Made by a program: the position numbers and the translations under genes
From: a virus
Virus genome (UHGV): UHGV-0307316
Length of the DNA: 64,000 nt
Strand: one strand, 5' to 3'
Shown: piece after piece, positions 1,387 through 31,595 of the stretch
Layout: each line of letters starts with the position of its first letter
Position numbering within the stretch: position 1 is the first letter of the stretch
The notes under the pieces: model-generated
What the model saw: only the letters and a program-made list of their open reading frames with translations
Databases searched by the model: none
What the model was told of the DNA's origin: nothing

Positions 1387-2862
1387 GTGAGAAGAATGGC
1401 AGATATTACAGAAACACAAGAAAGCTTACCACCATTTAGAATGGGTGAAGTAGGTTCTTTGGGTCTGAAGGTTAAGAATGGAAGAATCTATGAAGAACCT
1501 CGTCAGGCACTAAGGTTCCCTGAAAGTATTAAAACTTTCCAATTAATGATGCGTGACCCTGCTGTAGCAGCATCTGTAAATATTATTAAGATGTTTGTCA
1601 GAAAAGTCAACTGGAGATTCGTACCTCCAAAGGGAAAAGAGCAAGACCCTAAAATGCTTGAAAGAGCAGACTTCTTTAATTCTTTAATGGATGACATGGA
1701 GCATGATTGGGCAGATTTTATTAATTCTGTAATGTCATTCTGCACTTATGGGTTCTGTGTTAACGAGAAAGTTTATAAGAAGCGACAGGGTAAAAAAGGA
1801 AAGTACCAGTCAAAATTTGATGATGGTCTAATTGGATGGGCTAAATTACCAATCAGAAACCAATCAACACTTGATAAGTGGTATTTTGACGAAGACTTTA
1901 GAAAAGTTACTGGTGTTAGACAGAATCTGAGAAATGTTTCACATATTGCTGGAGCAATTAATCTCGGAGAAAGGCCACTAACAAGAAAACTTCCACGAGC
2001 TAAATTCATGCTGTTTAAGTATGATGATGAATATGGAAACCCAGAAGGTCGTTCACCATTACTTAATGCCTATGTACCGTGGAAGTATAAAGTTCAGATT
2101 GAAGAGTACGAAGCCGTTGGTGTTTCAAGAGACTTGGTAGGTATGCCAAAGATTGGTTTACCACCAGATTATCTGGATGAAAATGCAGAACCTGAAAAGA
2201 AAGCTTTCGTACAATACTGCAAAACTGTTGTTAACGATATGATTGCTAATGATAGAGCAGGTTTAATCTGGCCTAGATATATCGACCCAGATACTAAAGA
2301 GGATATTTTCGAGTTCTCATTAGTTTCTAGACAGGGTGCTAAAGCATACGATACAGGTTCTATTATTGACAGATATTCCAAGCAGATTATGATGGCATTT
2401 ATGTCAGATGTTCTTGCTATGGGTCAGTCAAAATATGGTTCATTCTCTCTTGCAGATTCTAAGACAAGCTTACTAGCAATGTCAGTGGATATTCTGCTGA
2501 AGCAAATTAAGAACGTAATTAACCGTGATTTAGTTGCACAGACTTATGCTCTTAATATGTGGGACGATGAAGAACATGTACAAATCACTTATGATGATAT
2601 CGAAACTCCAGACCTTGAAGCAATTGGTTCTTATATCCAGAAGACTGTTGCAGTAGGTGCTTTGGAAGTTGACAAAGAGCTATCTAACAAGCTTAGAGAG
2701 CATATTGGTCTTCCTCCTGCTGATGAGTCTCAACCAGTATCTGAAAAGCTTTCTCCAAATAGTCAAAGCCGTTCAGGAGATGGTTATAAGACCGCTGGAG
2801 AAGGTACTGCAAAGACACCTTCAGCGAAAGACCCAAGCACAGCAAATAAGGCAAATAAATAA
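1387..2862 (+). CDS. Portal protein
   Basis: 491 aa ORF immediately downstream of terminase with a 7-nt gap; size and position typical of portal; no motif-level proof. Confidence 0.7.
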   Translation: MRRMADITETQESLPPFRMGEVGSLGLKVKNGRIYEEPRQALRFPESIKTFQLMMRDPAVAASVNIIKMFVRKVNWRFVPPKGKEQDPKMLERADFFNSLMDDMEHDWADFINSVMSFCTYGFCVNEKVYKKRQGKKGKYQSKFDDGLIGWAKLPIRNQSTLDKWYFDEDFRKVTGVRQNLRNVSHIAGAINLGERPLTRKLPRAKFMLFKYDDEYGNPEGRSPLLNAYVPWKYKVQIEEYEAVGVSRDLVGMPKIGLPPDYLDENAEPEKKAFVQYCKTVVNDMIANDRAGLIWPRYIDPDTKEDIFEFSLVSRQGAKAYDTGSIIDRYSKQIMMAFMSDVLAMGQSKYGSFSLADSKTSLLAMSVDILLKQIKNVINRDLVAQTYALNMWDDEEHVQITYDDIETPDLEAIGSYIQKTVAVGALEVDKELSNKLREHIGLPPADESQPVSEKLSPNSQSRSGDGYKTAGEGTAKTPSAKDPSTANKANK

Positions 2863-11034: not shown

Positions 11035-19143
<8,109 letters not shown>

Positions 19144-26495: not shown

Positions 26496-26879
26496 TCAAA
26501 TACCTGTGCAGCTTCTGTTTTCTAAGAAATACTCAACACCATACATAGCTTTTTGCATCAAATCTTCTTTAAACTGAATACGATGATTAAGCATAGCCTG
26601 TACATCAATATCATCATGGTGCTTCTCTTTAATATTTGCAGATTGCAGGAAATACTCTGCAAGAACACGATACTGATAGTCAGTTACCTTGTCAGTCATC
26701 TCTGTTAAAGACTCTTCAGAGATTGGTTTAAGTAACTCACCATTAGCCAAAGCAACACCTTTAACAATCTGACAAGTGTCTTCTGGAACACCTGATAAGT
26801 CCACATTTGGAAGTTCTGTTGCATTGACTGGTAAATTCATTGCCATAACCATTGCAGCAGCTAATAAAATCTTTTTCAT
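26496..26879 (-). CDS. Secreted/periplasmic protein (signal peptide)
   Basis: N-terminus MKKILLAAAMVMAMNLPVNA with A-x-A cleavage-type site. Confidence 0.45.
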   Translation of the reverse strand: MKKILLAAAMVMAMNLPVNATELPNVDLSGVPEDTCQIVKGVALANGELLKPISEESLTEMTDKVTDYQYRVLAEYFLQSANIKEKHHDDIDVQAMLNHRIQFKEDLMQKAMYGVEYFLENRSCTGI

Positions 26880-26923
26880 AATGACCTCAAAGTTATATTG
26901 AATTTTGTATTACATTGAGTATA

Positions 26924-26952
26924 AAAATAAGCTATAACACCTGACTTGTCAA
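26924..26952 (-). promoter_or_regulatory. Candidate sigma70-like promoter for 26879 gene (TTGACAAG -35 type)
   Basis: On - strand: TTGACAAG, 17-nt spacer, TATTTT about 45 nt upstream of the start codon. Confidence 0.3.
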
Positions 26953-26996
26953 CAGACTTTATAGCTTATTTGGCAGATTTTTTATAAGGCTACTGC

Positions 26997-27390
26997 CATC
27001 CTTCCATACCACACCTCACCCAACCATACCATGCCTTACCAGACCGCACCTTGCCTCATTAAAAGACCCTCTTAAAAGACCTTTTAAAAAGGTAAGTCTC
27101 ATTTTAATGTAGCTGAGACTAACTACCCGCACCGAACCTCACCTGACCTGACCGCGCCATACCTAACCGCGCCTTACCACACCTCACTTAAAAACCCTAT
27201 GAGATACTCTATCGAATATAATTTAAAGACTCTTAAGTGATGTAATCGAATTTTTATGTAGCTCCGATTAACTACCCGCACTTTACCAAACCTCACCCTA
27301 CCCTACCAGACCTTACCTAACCGCGCCGTACCTCATTAAAAGACCCTCTTAAAGACCTTTTAAAAAGGAGCCTCCGAAGAGGCTACCTAG
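26997..27390. repeat. Intergenic repeat module A (two sub-copies): phased CC/ACC 5- and 10-bp repeats plus conserved hairpin cores
   Basis: Cores CATTAAAAGACCCTCTTAAAAGACCTTTTAAAAAGG and TAAGTCTCATTTTAATGTAGCTGAGACTAACTACCC; ACC every 5 bp across 27121-27185; paralogous to 28510-28790. Confidence 0.8.
27362..27386 (-). terminator. Rho-independent terminator for - strand gene 27396-27836
   Basis: On - strand: AGCCTC-TTCG-GAGGCT hairpin followed by CCTTTTT. Confidence 0.55.
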
Positions 27391-27395
27391 TCAAC

Positions 27396-27836
27396 TTAGA
27401 AAGGTTTTCTACGTTGCTTGTTAATGTTAGCTTTCATAGCAGCTAAATGGTTTTGCTGTTCAATTAGTCGTGAACGTTCTTGATGGCTAAGTACCATAGT
27501 GTTCACATTCTCAATCGCTTGAGTGGCTTGCTTTAAAGCACGACCAATCTTACCAGACATTTTACGTTTTGCAATAGTTGCTTGATGCTTAGGTTCAACC
27601 ACACGATAACCAACACCCATTGAAGCAACCAGATAAATCTTCTCTTCTTTAAGAAGCTTCTCAATAAACTTCTCAAGTCGATTTAAGCGTGTAAGTGCGT
27701 AAGCTTTCATTTCATCTTCGTACTTAACAATGTCACCTTGATAAGTTGGCTTCACAATACCTAAGAAGGTATCCATCTCAGAGTGTGATACAGTGTCACC
27801 GTAACTAAACTTTGCTGCTAATGCTTTTGTATTCAT
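27396..27836 (-). CDS. Hypothetical protein (repeat-bracketed cassette)
   Basis: 146 aa ORF; basic C-terminus; flanked by repeat modules. Confidence 0.4.
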   Translation of the reverse strand: MNTKALAAKFSYGDTVSHSEMDTFLGIVKPTYQGDIVKYEDEMKAYALTRLNRLEKFIEKLLKEEKIYLVASMGVGYRVVEPKHQATIAKRKMSGKIGRALKQATQAIENVNTMVLSHQERSRLIEQQNHLAAMKANINKQRRKPF

Positions 27837-27838
27837 AA

Positions 27839-28444
<606 letters not shown>

Positions 28445-28509
28445 TTAGTTGATTGTTAAGTTGTTTGTAAAGAACCCTCAACAGAAGACTCTTTAGAAAC
28501 TTGGTAGAT

Positions 28510-28790
28510 TTTTAACGTGGATACTACCATCCACCCATACCGTGCCACACCACACCGGACCGTACCATGCCCAACCCTACTACACCAGACCTTATTAAAA
28601 GACCCTCTCCAAAGACCTTTTAAAAAGGTAAGTCTCATTTTAATGTAGCTGAGACTAACTACCCATACATTACCGCACCATATTATACCCTACCCCACCA
28701 TACTTCACTGCACCGAGCCACGCATTACATCACTTAAAAAACCTTTTCAAAGACTCTTAAGTGATGCTGGTGAGTACCCGTTGGTTTATG
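28510..28790. repeat. Intergenic repeat module B (paralog of module A)
   Basis: Shares the core GACCTTTTAAAAAGGTAAGTCTCATTTTAATGTAGCTGAGACTAACTACCC (28614-28664, identical to 27078-27128) and ATTAAAAGACCCTCT, plus CC/ACC-phased tracts and CACTTAA...TTAAGTG hairpin. Confidence 0.8.
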
Positions 28791-28830
28791 CTGCTCAGTA
28801 TACTCACCAAATTTTCTATGTCAACAACTT

Positions 28831-31079: not shown

Positions 31080-31595
31080 TCAACTTAGTTTTGCAAACTC
31101 TCCGTGGAGTTTTACAGCAGCTTCACAGTAAGCTTTATGGGCTTCTTCTTCCGTTGTGTATGTTCCTATATGTATAGTCTTACCATTATGGTTAATCTGG
31201 GCTACCCACTTACCAGACTTGCTTCTACTTGTGCCTTTTAAGTTTTTTGATGTTCTAGGTTGTCTCCTATTAGACATGTTCTGTTCTTTTGTGGCCTCTC
31301 TTAAATTGTTCCAAGCGTTATTCAAGCCATCTCCATCTTTGTGGTCAATGTGTTTATCAGGCCACTTGCCTGTCATCCAGAACCAAGCAATTCGGTGATT
31401 ACCTGTCCTGTATCCTAAAATCTGTGTGTGCATATACACACCAGACCTTGTGCGCTTAATTGCTCCGGCTTGGCTTCCAATAACCACCCTACTACTATGT
31501 GGAGGTCTACCAATCCATGTTAAGACCCCTGTTTCGGGGTCATAATCTAACCAAGACTTTAACTGTTCATGTGTGAATCCACAATCTCTCATCAA
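31080..31595 (-). CDS. HNH homing endonuclease with AP2-type DNA-binding domain
   Basis: HNH core IDHKDGDGLNNAWNNLREATKEQN; C-terminal AP2-like segment SKSGKWVAQINHNGKTIHIGTYTTEEEAHKAY; start abuts DNA polymerase stop. Confidence 0.7.
   Translation of the reverse strand: MMRDCGFTHEQLKSWLDYDPETGVLTWIGRPPHSSRVVIGSQAGAIKRTRSGVYMHTQILGYRTGNHRIAWFWMTGKWPDKHIDHKDGDGLNNAWNNLREATKEQNMSNRRQPRTSKNLKGTSRSKSGKWVAQINHNGKTIHIGTYTTEEEAHKAYCEAAVKLHGEFAKLS

What the first reader, a model, noticed from the sequence alone, without database searches (positions are those of the whole stretch)
27001..27190. Helically phased CC/ACC repeats at 5- and 10-bp intervals
Within module A, 27001-27060 shows a 10-bp period (cttCCatACC acaCCtcACC caaCCatACC atgCCttACC agaCCgcACC) and 27121-27185 shows ACC every 5 bp (cgcACC gaACC tcACC tgACC tgACC ... 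ACC taACC). The same C/A-rich tracts recur at 28528-28590 and 28660-28720. On the - (transcribed) strand these are GGT-phased, G-rich runs (GGTAGGGTAGGGTGAGG). Such phasing suggests cooperative protein binding along one DNA face or a G-rich structured RNA; several units also carry CACCTC, the anti-Shine-Dalgarno core.
Basis: seen in the sequence. Interest (0 to 1): 0.6.

Follow-up and report, generated by a model that had tools for sequence, protein, structure and literature searches.

The report
Guide-RNA arrays of a phage VIPR system
The 5-base "ACC" periodicity is the DNA for five guide RNAs of a VIPR system, a recently described phage RNA-guided gene-silencing system, and here the guides point at a satellite element that parasitises this phage; it is real and striking but was explained by two 2026 preprints.

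Summary
CC recurs at a strict 5-nt phase in five tracts (27001-27055, 27124-27183, 27273-27332, 28532-28591, 28660-28729) and nowhere else in the 64 kb. No dinucleotide shuffle reaches the observed phasing. The "10-bp" tract is also 5-bp periodic.

The window is a Felixounavirus. The tracts flank two minus-strand genes. One is 97.5% identical to the SUSP1 Vipr protein (PDB 36pp) and the other is 144/146 identical to SUSP1 vap1. On the minus strand each tract reads as 11-14 GGYNN units, followed by a 3' tail whose pseudoknot shows compensatory changes.

These are vrRNAs of a type II VIPR (Viral Interference Programmable Repeat) system. One Vipr protomer binds each GGY. The NN pairs read double-stranded DNA, skipping every third base, and silence transcription.

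I tested this independently. Under the 1-nt-skip rule, all five guides have their best matches in a satellite island found in about 9% of complete E. coli genomes. Three matches are strong (23/24, 21/22, 18/20) and two are marginal (18/22). There is no self-target.

The DNA-face, G-quadruplex and anti-Shine-Dalgarno ideas are not supported. The system is already known, so interest is low to moderate.

The parts
28797..28824 (-). Sigma-70-type promoter TTGACA-16-TATACT, just downstream of the DNA ligase gene. It is the likely start of the VIPR transcription unit.
   Evidence: Consensus scan gives 11/12 matches; coordinates. Function is inferred, not shown.
28728..28766 (-). Leader hairpin (CATCACTTAA ... 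TTAAGTGATG) in front of vrRNA U1. The same leader type precedes D2, with its 5' arm at 27225-27242.
   Evidence: Read from the sequence (family D4, 85). Its role in 5'-end formation is unknown.
28660..28729 (-). vrRNA U1 repeat tract: 14 GGYNN units, several with a degenerate first G (TG, AG, AA). The guide dinucleotides are AA GT TC GC GA AT GG AG AT AT GC AA.
   Evidence: The predicted target matches 23/24 in the satellite tape-measure gene, with the skipped base at the codon wobble position.
28622..28659 (-). U1 3' tail, type A (GTAG/CTAC and AGTCTCA/TGAGACT pseudoknot), followed by a T5 run.
28532..28591 (-). vrRNA U2 repeat tract, 12 units, immediately upstream of vipr.
   Evidence: Only a weak target prediction: 18/22 in the satellite tape-measure gene, antisense, with the skip at the wobble position.
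28502..28531 (-). U2 3' tail, type C (GTGG/CCAC and TGGTAG/CTACCA pseudoknot).
27839..28426 (-). vipr gene, 195 aa from the ATG at 28426 (the mechanical ORF starts at a GTG at 28441). It encodes a RAMP-like RNA-binding protein that polymerises on the GGY motifs.
   Evidence: PDB 36pp_D 'SUSP1 Vipr protein', E=1.7e-127, aligning query residues 6-200 to chain residues 1-195. 195/200 identical to SUSP1. Residues H17, K33, R39, E71, M72, K82, K88, R138, D177, W178 and R179 are all present.
27396..27836 (-). vap1, the Vipr accessory protein, 146 aa.
   Evidence: 144/146 identical to the gene downstream of vipr in phiSUSP1. phrog_5926, no Pfam match. The paper reports that vap1 enhances protection.
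27362..27387 (-). Intrinsic-terminator-like hairpin plus T run after vap1.
27273..27332 (-). vrRNA D1 repeat tract, 12 units.
   Evidence: The target matches 21/22 in the 5' leader of a 235-aa satellite ORF.
27244..27272 (-). D1 3' tail, type B (GTAG/CTAC and AATCGGA/TTCGATT pseudoknot).
27124..27183 (-). vrRNA D2 repeat tract, 12 units.
   Evidence: The target matches 18/22, with the first nine units perfect, in the satellite large serine recombinase gene; the skip is at the wobble position. This match is marginal.
27086..27123 (-). D2 3' tail, type A, plus a T5 run.
   Evidence: The sequence is identical to the U1 tail.
27001..27055 (-). vrRNA D3 repeat tract, 11 units.
   Evidence: The target matches 18/20 in the same satellite leader region as D1.
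26971..27000 (-). D3 3' tail, type D (AAGG/CCTT and TGGCAG/CTGCCA pseudoknot).
26924..26952 (-). Promoter-like site TTGACA-17-TATTTT within an inverted repeat, ahead of the next gene (26496-26879). It marks the downstream edge of the locus.
   Evidence: Whether it belongs to the system is uncertain.

Best explanation
The tracts are the repeat regions of five vrRNA genes of a type II VIPR (Viral Interference Programmable Repeat) system carried by a Felixounavirus. Two lie upstream and three downstream of the vipr-vap1 gene pair, all on the - strand.

Proposed mechanism. Experimental steps were shown in the two preprints for the near-identical SUSP1 system and are inferred here by homology; sequence-level steps were tested here.
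1. The locus is transcribed from the - strand and gives RNAs of about 100 nt. Each is 11-14 GGYNN units capped by a 3' pseudoknot tail.
2. One Vipr protomer binds per unit. It flips out and sequesters G-G-Y and presents the two variable bases.
3. The filament reads double-stranded DNA with the NN pairs while skipping every third target base (5 RNA bases per 3 DNA bases), forming a gapped R-loop triplex.
4. Binding blocks transcription.

In this phage the guides are aimed at a roughly 10-kb integrative satellite island of E. coli that carries Felixounavirus-like tape-measure and baseplate genes. The predicted targets are the tape-measure gene (U1, perhaps U2), the leader of a 235-aa ORF (D1, D3) and the large serine recombinase gene (D2). 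The 5-nt periodicity is therefore the footprint of a protein-RNA register, and the variable positions are an address code.
For: Protein components:
- The adjacent gene is Vipr: PDB 36pp_D, E=1.7e-127. It is 195/200 identical to SUSP1 Vipr, with the published RNA- and DNA-contact residues conserved (residues).
- vap1 is 144/146 identical to the SUSP1 gene.

Repeat tracts:
- In 63 unique tracts from the window and 19 related Felixounavirus loci, G1 is 85% G, G2 is 98% G and Y3 is 99% pyrimidine. N4 and N5 have 1.9 bits of entropy. Tracts have 7-19 units, median 12.
- Among 13 groups of closely related tracts, variable columns are 26% and 18% at N4 and N5, against 2-8% at G, G and Y.
- My tract detector recovers the published 1+3 arrangement in phiSUSP1 (L017).

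Tail: the pseudoknot is 99.4% paired, 8 of 9 pairs have changes on both sides, and slid controls pair only 30-42%.

Conservation: viral contigs whose Vipr is only 37-40% identical keep GG-phased tracts around the gene.

Independent target test on 17 satellite loci (306 kb):
- Every guide scores best with a 1-nt skip: U1 23/24, D1 21/22, D3 18/20, D2 18/22, U2 18/22.
- Skips of 0, 2 or 3 nt give 15-18.
- Of 300 shuffles of NN order, 0 reach the observed score for U1, D1 and D3, and 2-3 do for U2 and D2.
- The skipped base falls on the codon wobble position for the U1 and D2 hits, and for the 18/22 antisense U2 hit (a second 17/22 U2 site does not).
- The D1 site lies between a strong promoter and the ORF start.
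- There is no self-target in the window (maximum 73%).

Published experiments on SUSP1 (sRNA-seq, Vipr pull-down, binding assays, GFP repression, plaque assays, 21 cryo-EM structures).
Against: - Nothing about expression, processing or silencing was measured for this phage. All of it rests on 97.5% identity to SUSP1.
- The 5' ends of the vrRNAs and how they are made are not defined, either here or in the text I read.
- U2 and D2 targets are marginal (82% NN match; 2-3 of 300 shuffles equal them). Exact-pattern scans of IMG/VR for their full targets found nothing.
- Only 17 of about 485 satellite variants were scanned.
- U1 has 5 of 14 units with a degenerate first G and one AA unit, so it may bind Vipr less well. 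The paper does note frequent internal degeneracy.
- The four tail types are paralogues, so the compensatory changes represent few independent events.
- The source papers are preprints.
Confidence: 0.93

Rival explanations
1. The tracts act as DNA. Phased CC/GG steps would create binding sites or curvature for a nucleoid-associated or phage early protein that coats one face of the helix.
For: The periodicity is real and strong, and the tracts are intergenic.
Against: - A 5-bp period alternates helix faces.
- Conservation is strand-specific and follows an RNA logic: the tails keep base pairs through compensatory changes.
- The two bases between the conserved triplets are hypervariable and spell matches to foreign DNA under a 1-nt-skip rule.
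- The neighbouring protein is a solved RNA-binding RAMP.
Confidence: 0.02
2. The G-rich - strand, as RNA or displaced DNA, forms two-tier G-quadruplexes or stable R-loops. These would serve as a replication origin or transcription regulator, as in Ig switch-region pentamers or ColE1 RNA II.
For: (GGN3)n formally satisfies a two-tetrad G4 motif. The locus sits among replication genes (ligase, polymerase) downstream of a strong promoter.
Against: - Folding with G-quadruplex energies gives no G4 in any of the five RNAs.
- In the solved complexes the guanines are bound individually by protein.
- The model does not explain Y3 conservation, NN hypervariability, the pseudoknot tails or the target matches.
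Confidence: 0.02
3. The RNAs bind Vipr but are not guides. They would be sponges or assembly scaffolds, like TRAP sites or CsrB, that regulate the protein or the flanking genes, and the NN bases would be neutral.
For: A protein oligomer reading short triplets at about 5-nt spacing resembles the TRAP-trp leader interaction (from memory). Two of the five guides have only marginal targets.
Against: Three guides match satellite DNA at 90-96% of NN positions, only with the 1-nt skip, and 0/300 shuffles reach that. The skips fall at wobble positions. Reprogramming NN redirects silencing in SUSP1.
Confidence: 0.03

Closest known systems
Type II VIPR system of Escherichia phage SUSP1 (Vipr + vap1 + vrRNAs; bioRxiv 10.64898/2026.04.26.720920 and 10.64898/2026.04.26.720927; PDB 36pp)
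   Same: - Vipr is 97.5% identical and vap1 is 144/146 identical.
- Gene order and strand are the same.
- The GGYNN units, tail types and pseudoknot are the same.
- The same satellite family is targeted; locus L031 holds WP_096972663 and WP_096972664, which the paper names.
   Different: - The arrangement is 2 upstream + 3 downstream vrRNAs, against 1 + 3 in SUSP1.
- All NN codes differ.
- U1 is an extra, partly degenerate guide with its own leader hairpin directly behind the promoter.
Class 1 CRISPR-Cas effector complexes (Cas7 backbone on crRNA, e.g. Cascade)
   Same: RAMP-fold protomers with a thumb and a glycine-rich loop polymerise along a guide RNA. They flip out bases periodically and form an R-loop on DNA. 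This is as stated in the papers.
   Different: - There is no repeat-spacer array and no cas1/cas2 or other cas genes nearby.
- The guide is discontinuous: 2 of every 5 RNA bases pair, and 1 of every 3 DNA bases is skipped. In CRISPR it is 5 of every 6.
- No PAM is needed.
- The system is phage-encoded and aimed at a rival mobile element.
TRAP (trp RNA-binding attenuation protein) binding sites in Bacillus trp leaders
   Same: This is a mechanistic analogy only: many identical subunits each read a short triplet that recurs roughly every 5 nt on a single-stranded RNA (from memory).
   Different: - The triplets are (G/U)AG, not GGY.
- TRAP is a closed 11-mer ring, not an open helical filament.
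- The spacer bases carry no address and no DNA is targeted.
- No TRAP-like protein is present here.

Membership tests
VIPR system (type II, SUSP1 clade) | A Vipr protein (minimal RAMP: RRM core, G-loop, thumb) is encoded at the locus. | tested here: met
   Window 27839-28426(-) matches PDB 36pp_D 'SUSP1 Vipr protein' at E=1.7e-127 and is 195/200 identical to phiSUSP1.
VIPR system (type II, SUSP1 clade) | Residues that read G1, G2 and Y3 and clamp the DNA are present (H17, D177, R138, W178, E71, M72, R179, K33, K82, K88, R39). | tested here: met
   All are present when numbering from the ATG at 28426 (residue list). The paper's T175 is V in both SUSP1 and this protein under my numbering.
VIPR system (type II, SUSP1 clade) | The vap1 accessory gene is adjacent to vipr. 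| tested here: met
   The 146-aa ORF at 27396-27836(-) is 144/146 identical to the SUSP1 downstream gene.
VIPR system (type II, SUSP1 clade) | vrRNAs have 9-16 tandem YNNGG/GGYNN units, with GGY conserved and NN hypervariable, in the intergenic regions flanking vipr on the same strand. | tested here: met
   There are five tracts of 11-14 units. In 63 unique tracts, G1, G2 and Y3 are 85%, 98% and 99% conserved and N4/N5 have 1.9 bits of entropy. Variable columns concentrate at N4 and N5.
VIPR system (type II, SUSP1 clade) | A conserved 3' tail forms a pseudoknot. | tested here: met
   An H-type pseudoknot is 99.4% paired across 19 distinct tails, with 8/9 pairs showing changes on both sides and slid controls at 30-42%. 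Caveat: the four paralogous tail types supply most of the changes.
VIPR system (type II, SUSP1 clade) | Guides match natural targets at >=80% of NN positions under the 1-nt-skip rule, not under other skips, and mostly in competing mobile elements. | tested here: met
   Match rates are U1 96%, D1 95%, D3 90%, D2 82% and U2 82%, all in the satellite island. Skips of 0, 2 or 3 nt give at most 18 matches. U1, D1 and D3 are unmatched by 300 shuffles, and U2 and D2 by all but 2-3.
VIPR system (type II, SUSP1 clade) | No self-targeting. | tested here: met
   The best self-match in the 64-kb window is 65-73% of NN positions. The rest of the genome is not in the window.
VIPR system (type II, SUSP1 clade) | vrRNAs are expressed as roughly 100-nt RNAs and co-purify with Vipr. 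| not testable with these tools
   This is shown for SUSP1 only. Here there are only a predicted promoter and terminators.
VIPR system (type II, SUSP1 clade) | Guide-dependent transcriptional repression of the target. | not testable with these tools
   This is shown for SUSP1 by GFP and plaque assays.
CRISPR array | Identical direct repeats of about 24-48 nt alternate with unique spacers of similar length, with cas genes nearby. | tested here: not met
   The repeat finder reports only the roughly 107-140-nt vrRNA modules and short leader motifs. There is no Rfam hit and there are no cas-like neighbours.
TRAP-type RNA target | About 11 (G/U)AG triplets separated by 2-3 nt, with a TRAP (MtrB) protein. 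| tested here: not met
   The triplets are GGY at a fixed 2-nt spacing. The neighbouring proteins have no Pfam match and one of them is Vipr.
G-quadruplex-forming element | Four or more G-runs fold into stacked tetrads as the stable state. | tested here: inconclusive
   The motif is formally present. ViennaRNA with G-quadruplex energies predicts none in the minimum-free-energy structure. In the solved complexes the guanines are bound by protein. No wet-lab test was done.

The most novel reading that the evidence does not exclude
The arrays may be rewritten faster than point mutation and simple recombination would allow, by an as-yet-unknown guide-acquisition or diversification process that copies satellite sequence into the NN positions, in effect a primitive adaptation step.

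What I see:
- There are 63 different tracts in 20 loci whose Vipr proteins are 96-100% identical.
- The array DNA is 76-80% identical where the flanking genes are about 90% identical.
- Unit numbers change in steps of 5 nt.
- The same guide sits at different array positions with different tails. The window's D3, with tail D, is nearly identical in NN code (one base differs) to the first downstream guide of L001 and L011, which have tail B.

This shows cassette-level exchange but does not reveal how a new matching code arises.
Probability: 0.12. Interest if true: 0.85.

Novelty: already known. Interest (0 to 1): 0.3.

Why it matters
VIPR is a newly described way to address double-stranded DNA with RNA. 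The code is discontinuous: two bases are read and one is skipped. A 20-kDa protein held in register by GGY repeats does the reading, and the system is proposed to predate CRISPR.

This window adds nothing to the mechanism, but it does three useful things:
- A reader with no tools picked the vrRNA arrays out of raw sequence by their periodicity alone.
- The published targeting rule was reproduced here from scratch on an independent phage. All five guides point at the same family of E. coli satellite islands, three of them strongly. This supports the phage-versus-satellite arms-race reading and gives concrete guide-target pairs to test.
- The arrays are unannotated, or overlapped by 'hypothetical protein' or 'repeat_region' features, in the Felixounavirus GenBank records I examined, and they are absent from Rfam 15. 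Annotation could be corrected.

Tried and rejected
- **Early hypotheses from the anatomy.** Before the Vipr hit I considered a TRAP-like ring-protein site, a CsrA/Hfq sponge, a two-tier G-quadruplex, an R-loop origin (Ig-switch-like pentamers) and a Rho rut site on the C-rich strand. All were dropped once the neighbouring gene matched Vipr and the NN code matched satellite DNA.
- **Coding.** A 60-aa ORF (28456-28638, -) overlaps U2. A 5-nt period is incompatible with a conserved reading frame, so it is spurious.
- **Databases that gave nothing.** Rfam gathering scans of the window and of seven other loci found no match. ARAGORN found no tRNA. Pfam gave nothing for Vipr or vap1, and PHROGs gave only 'unknown function'. 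The Felix O1 genome paper lists other repeats but not these.
- **Leader motif as a genome-wide promoter.** The RGTCTTT-type leader motif occurs in its long form only inside the arrays.
- **Exact-pattern scans.** IMG/VR scans for the complete U2 and D2 targets found 0 hits.
- **A badly chosen query.** A 'spread' BLAST that included host flanks mostly returned tonB matches and had to be repeated with the island core.

Full report
**Observation**

The region lies in two long intergenic stretches (26880-27395 and 28442-28830) of a block of minus-strand genes. A scan of the whole 64-kb window counted CC or GG falling in a single 5-nt phase within 60-nt windows. Scores of 7-12 of 12 occurred in only five places, all as CC on the + strand, against a background maximum of 4.

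Dinucleotide-preserving shuffles of each tract never reach the observed phasing (0/1000 for each of the five). CC autocorrelation peaks only at lags 5, 10, 15 and 20. A fifth tract, 27273-27332, is the source of the quoted GGTAGGGTAGGGTGAGG.

**Where the window comes from**

The region is 90-97.5% identical to Felixounavirus genomes (Felix O1-like myoviruses of E. coli and Salmonella; best hit LF82P9). With a sensitive search, the array DNA itself is only about 76-85% identical in phages whose flanking genes are about 90% identical, and the number of modules differs between phages. GenBank records leave the region unannotated or mark a 'repeat_region'. The Felix O1 genome paper does not describe it. 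Rfam and tRNA scans are empty.

**Anatomy on the transcribed (minus) strand**

Reading 5' to 3':
- a near-consensus sigma-70 promoter (28824-28797);
- a leader hairpin;
- vrRNA U1 (14 units, 28729-28660) with a 3' tail and a T5 run;
- vrRNA U2 (12 units, 28591-28532) with a tail;
- a 195-aa gene (28426-27839);
- a 146-aa gene (27836-27396);
- a terminator-like hairpin (27387-27362);
- three more units: D1 (27332-27273), D2 (27183-27124) and D3 (27055-27001), each with a tail.

Each unit of the tracts reads G-G-Y-N-N.

**Identification**

Both proteins are 'unknown function' in PHROGs and have no Pfam match. Relatives of the 195-aa protein with only 37-40% identity, found on environmental viral contigs, are also flanked by GG-phased pentamer tracts, for example GGCNN runs in L022. 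The protein-tract association is therefore ancient.

A sequence search of the PDB gave the answer. The protein matches chain 36pp_D, 'SUSP1 Vipr protein', at E=1.7e-127. Two 2026 bioRxiv preprints describe VIPR (Viral Interference Programmable Repeat) systems:
- A Vipr protein, a minimal RAMP, works with a vap accessory gene and vrRNAs made of 9-16 YNNGG repeats with a conserved 3' tail.
- One Vipr protomer binds each repeat, sequesters GGY and presents NN.
- The filament reads double-stranded DNA by pairing NN while skipping every third target base, forming an R-loop triplex and silencing transcription.
- In the SUSP1 clade, 18 of 20 guides with identifiable targets hit a satellite phage.

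**Membership tests run here**

1. **Vipr.** The window protein is 195/200 identical to phiSUSP1 Vipr. It keeps H17, K33, R39, E71, M72, K82, K88, R138, D177, W178 and R179.
2. **vap1.** The 146-aa protein is 144/146 identical to the SUSP1 downstream gene.
3. **Repeat conservation.** In 63 distinct tracts from the window and 19 related loci, G1 is G in 85%, G2 in 98% and position 3 is a pyrimidine in 99%. N4 and N5 carry 1.9 bits of entropy. Tracts have 7-19 units, median 12. Within 13 groups of close relatives, 26% and 18% of N4 and N5 columns vary, against 2-8% for G, G and Y. The same detector recovers the published 1+3 arrangement in phiSUSP1.
4. **Tail pseudoknot.** The four tail types align without gaps. 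An H-type pseudoknot (helix 1 columns 3-6 with 17-20; helix 2 columns 9-13 with 30-34) is 99.4% paired. Eight of 9 pairs change on both sides, while partners slid by 1-3 columns pair only 30-42%.
5. **Targets.**
   - *Finding the satellite.* The phage gene next to the tape measure (13376-13933) is 91-94% identical in DNA to a 'phage baseplate protein' gene in 474 of 5,426 complete E. coli genomes. That gene lies in a roughly 10-kb island with a tape-measure gene, small ORFs, an HNH endonuclease and a large serine recombinase, integrated at several chromosomal sites. The island core occurs in 485 genomes. One copy, in strain SCU-387 (locus L031), holds the exact proteins the paper names for the SUSP1 satellite.
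   - *Scan result.* I scanned 17 islands (306 kb, both strands) with each guide's NN string spaced by 0, 1, 2 or 3 wildcards. With one wildcard the best scores were U1 23/24, D1 21/22, D3 18/20, D2 18/22 and U2 18/22, all inside the island. Other spacings gave 15-18. Of 300 shuffles of NN order, none reached the observed score for U1, D1 or D3, and 2-3 did for U2 and D2.
   - *Target context.* U1 hits the tape-measure gene and D2 the recombinase gene. In both, and in the 18/22 antisense U2 hit, the skipped base is the codon wobble position. D1 and D3 hit neighbouring sites in the long 5' leader of a 235-aa ORF, downstream of a TTGACA-17-CATAAT promoter. That placement fits a transcriptional roadblock. 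Different guides match different island variants.
6. **Self-targeting.** No guide matches the window itself above 73%.

Expression and silencing cannot be tested with these tools and are inferred from SUSP1.

**Interpretation and rivals**

The periodicity is the register of a protein-RNA filament, and the variable dinucleotides are an address code.

G-quadruplex folding is not predicted even with G4 energies enabled, and it contradicts the solved complexes. CACCTC is simply two adjacent units and is Shine-Dalgarno-like in the RNA. DNA-level, G4/R-loop and pure-sponge models fail to explain Y3 conservation, compensatory tail changes and the skip-1-specific matches.

**Limits**

- The supporting literature consists of preprints.
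- The U2 and D2 targets are marginal, and exact-pattern scans of IMG/VR found no perfect sites.
- Only 17 of about 485 island variants were examined.
- The 5'-end formation of the vrRNAs is unresolved. The leader motifs are local to the arrays.
- U1 has several degenerate first guanines. The paper notes such degeneracy is common.

**Verdict**

This is a genuine, non-random feature that was correctly spotted. It is fully accounted for by a system already described and experimentally dissected in a near-identical phage. Novelty: already known. The added value here is an independent reproduction of the targeting rule, a guide-target map for this phage, and a few side observations listed separately.

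Noticed in passing
L041 about 2310-2465 (- strand); L031 2948-3002 (- strand): Two of the 17 satellite islands carry their own vrRNA-like gene: GGYNN units, a type C pseudoknot tail like the phage's U2, and a terminator. Neither island has a vipr gene, so the RNA would need the helper phage's Vipr. In L031 the second tail helix is changed on both sides (GTCG/CGAC instead of GTAG/CTAC).
   Followed up: partly
L029 2012-2049 and L030 28-65 (- strand); L043 5082-5119: [quoted passage not shown] That 30-mer is in all 5,426 E. coli genomes, with a median of 19 copies. A perfect 26/26 match exists in Escherichia whittamii between uup and pqiA, but E. coli lacks that repeat at that locus. The guide may be host-directed, or a decoy that soaks up helper Vipr. 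The text I read mentions only satellite-versus-satellite targeting.
   Followed up: partly
window 13376-13933 (+), in ORF 13355-14152: This segment of the phage gene next to the tape measure (phrog_3721) is 91-94% identical in nucleotide sequence to the 'phage baseplate protein' gene of the satellite islands in 474 of 5,426 E. coli genomes. The paper quotes 72% protein identity for SUSP1, so this points to recent gene exchange between this phage lineage and its satellite.
   Followed up: partly
window 27001-27055 versus L001 3404-3458 and L011 4111-4165: Essentially the same guide (NN code AA GC CT AA AT AT TG GA Gx AT) is the last vrRNA, with tail D, in the window. In two relatives it is the first downstream vrRNA, with tail B. 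Other relatives differ by whole 5-nt units. Guides therefore move and resize as cassettes.
   Followed up: no
window 28456-28638 (-); GenBank records: A 60-aa mechanical ORF overlaps vrRNA U2. Many Felixounavirus records list a 'hypothetical protein' under the match to 26960-27400; this may be only the end of the adjacent vap1 gene, which I did not check. bumzen marks a 'repeat_region' in the array. No vrRNA family exists in Rfam 15.
   Followed up: no
L022 3565-3854 and 4323-4513; L021, L023, L025: Environmental viral contigs whose Vipr is 37-40% identical carry much longer arrays of GGCNN or GGTNN units on both sides of vipr and its neighbour. A conserved spacer (GGTTAGGCCATTGCGGGCGAATAGGTCGCTGTGGTCTTT) sits between tracts in L022. 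No Rfam family, hammerhead included, was detected.
   Followed up: partly
window 31080-31595 (-): A 171-aa ORF sits directly downstream of the DNA polymerase gene; its bumzen counterpart is annotated 'homing endonuclease'. The satellite islands also carry HNH endonuclease and AP2/ERF-annotated genes.
   Followed up: no
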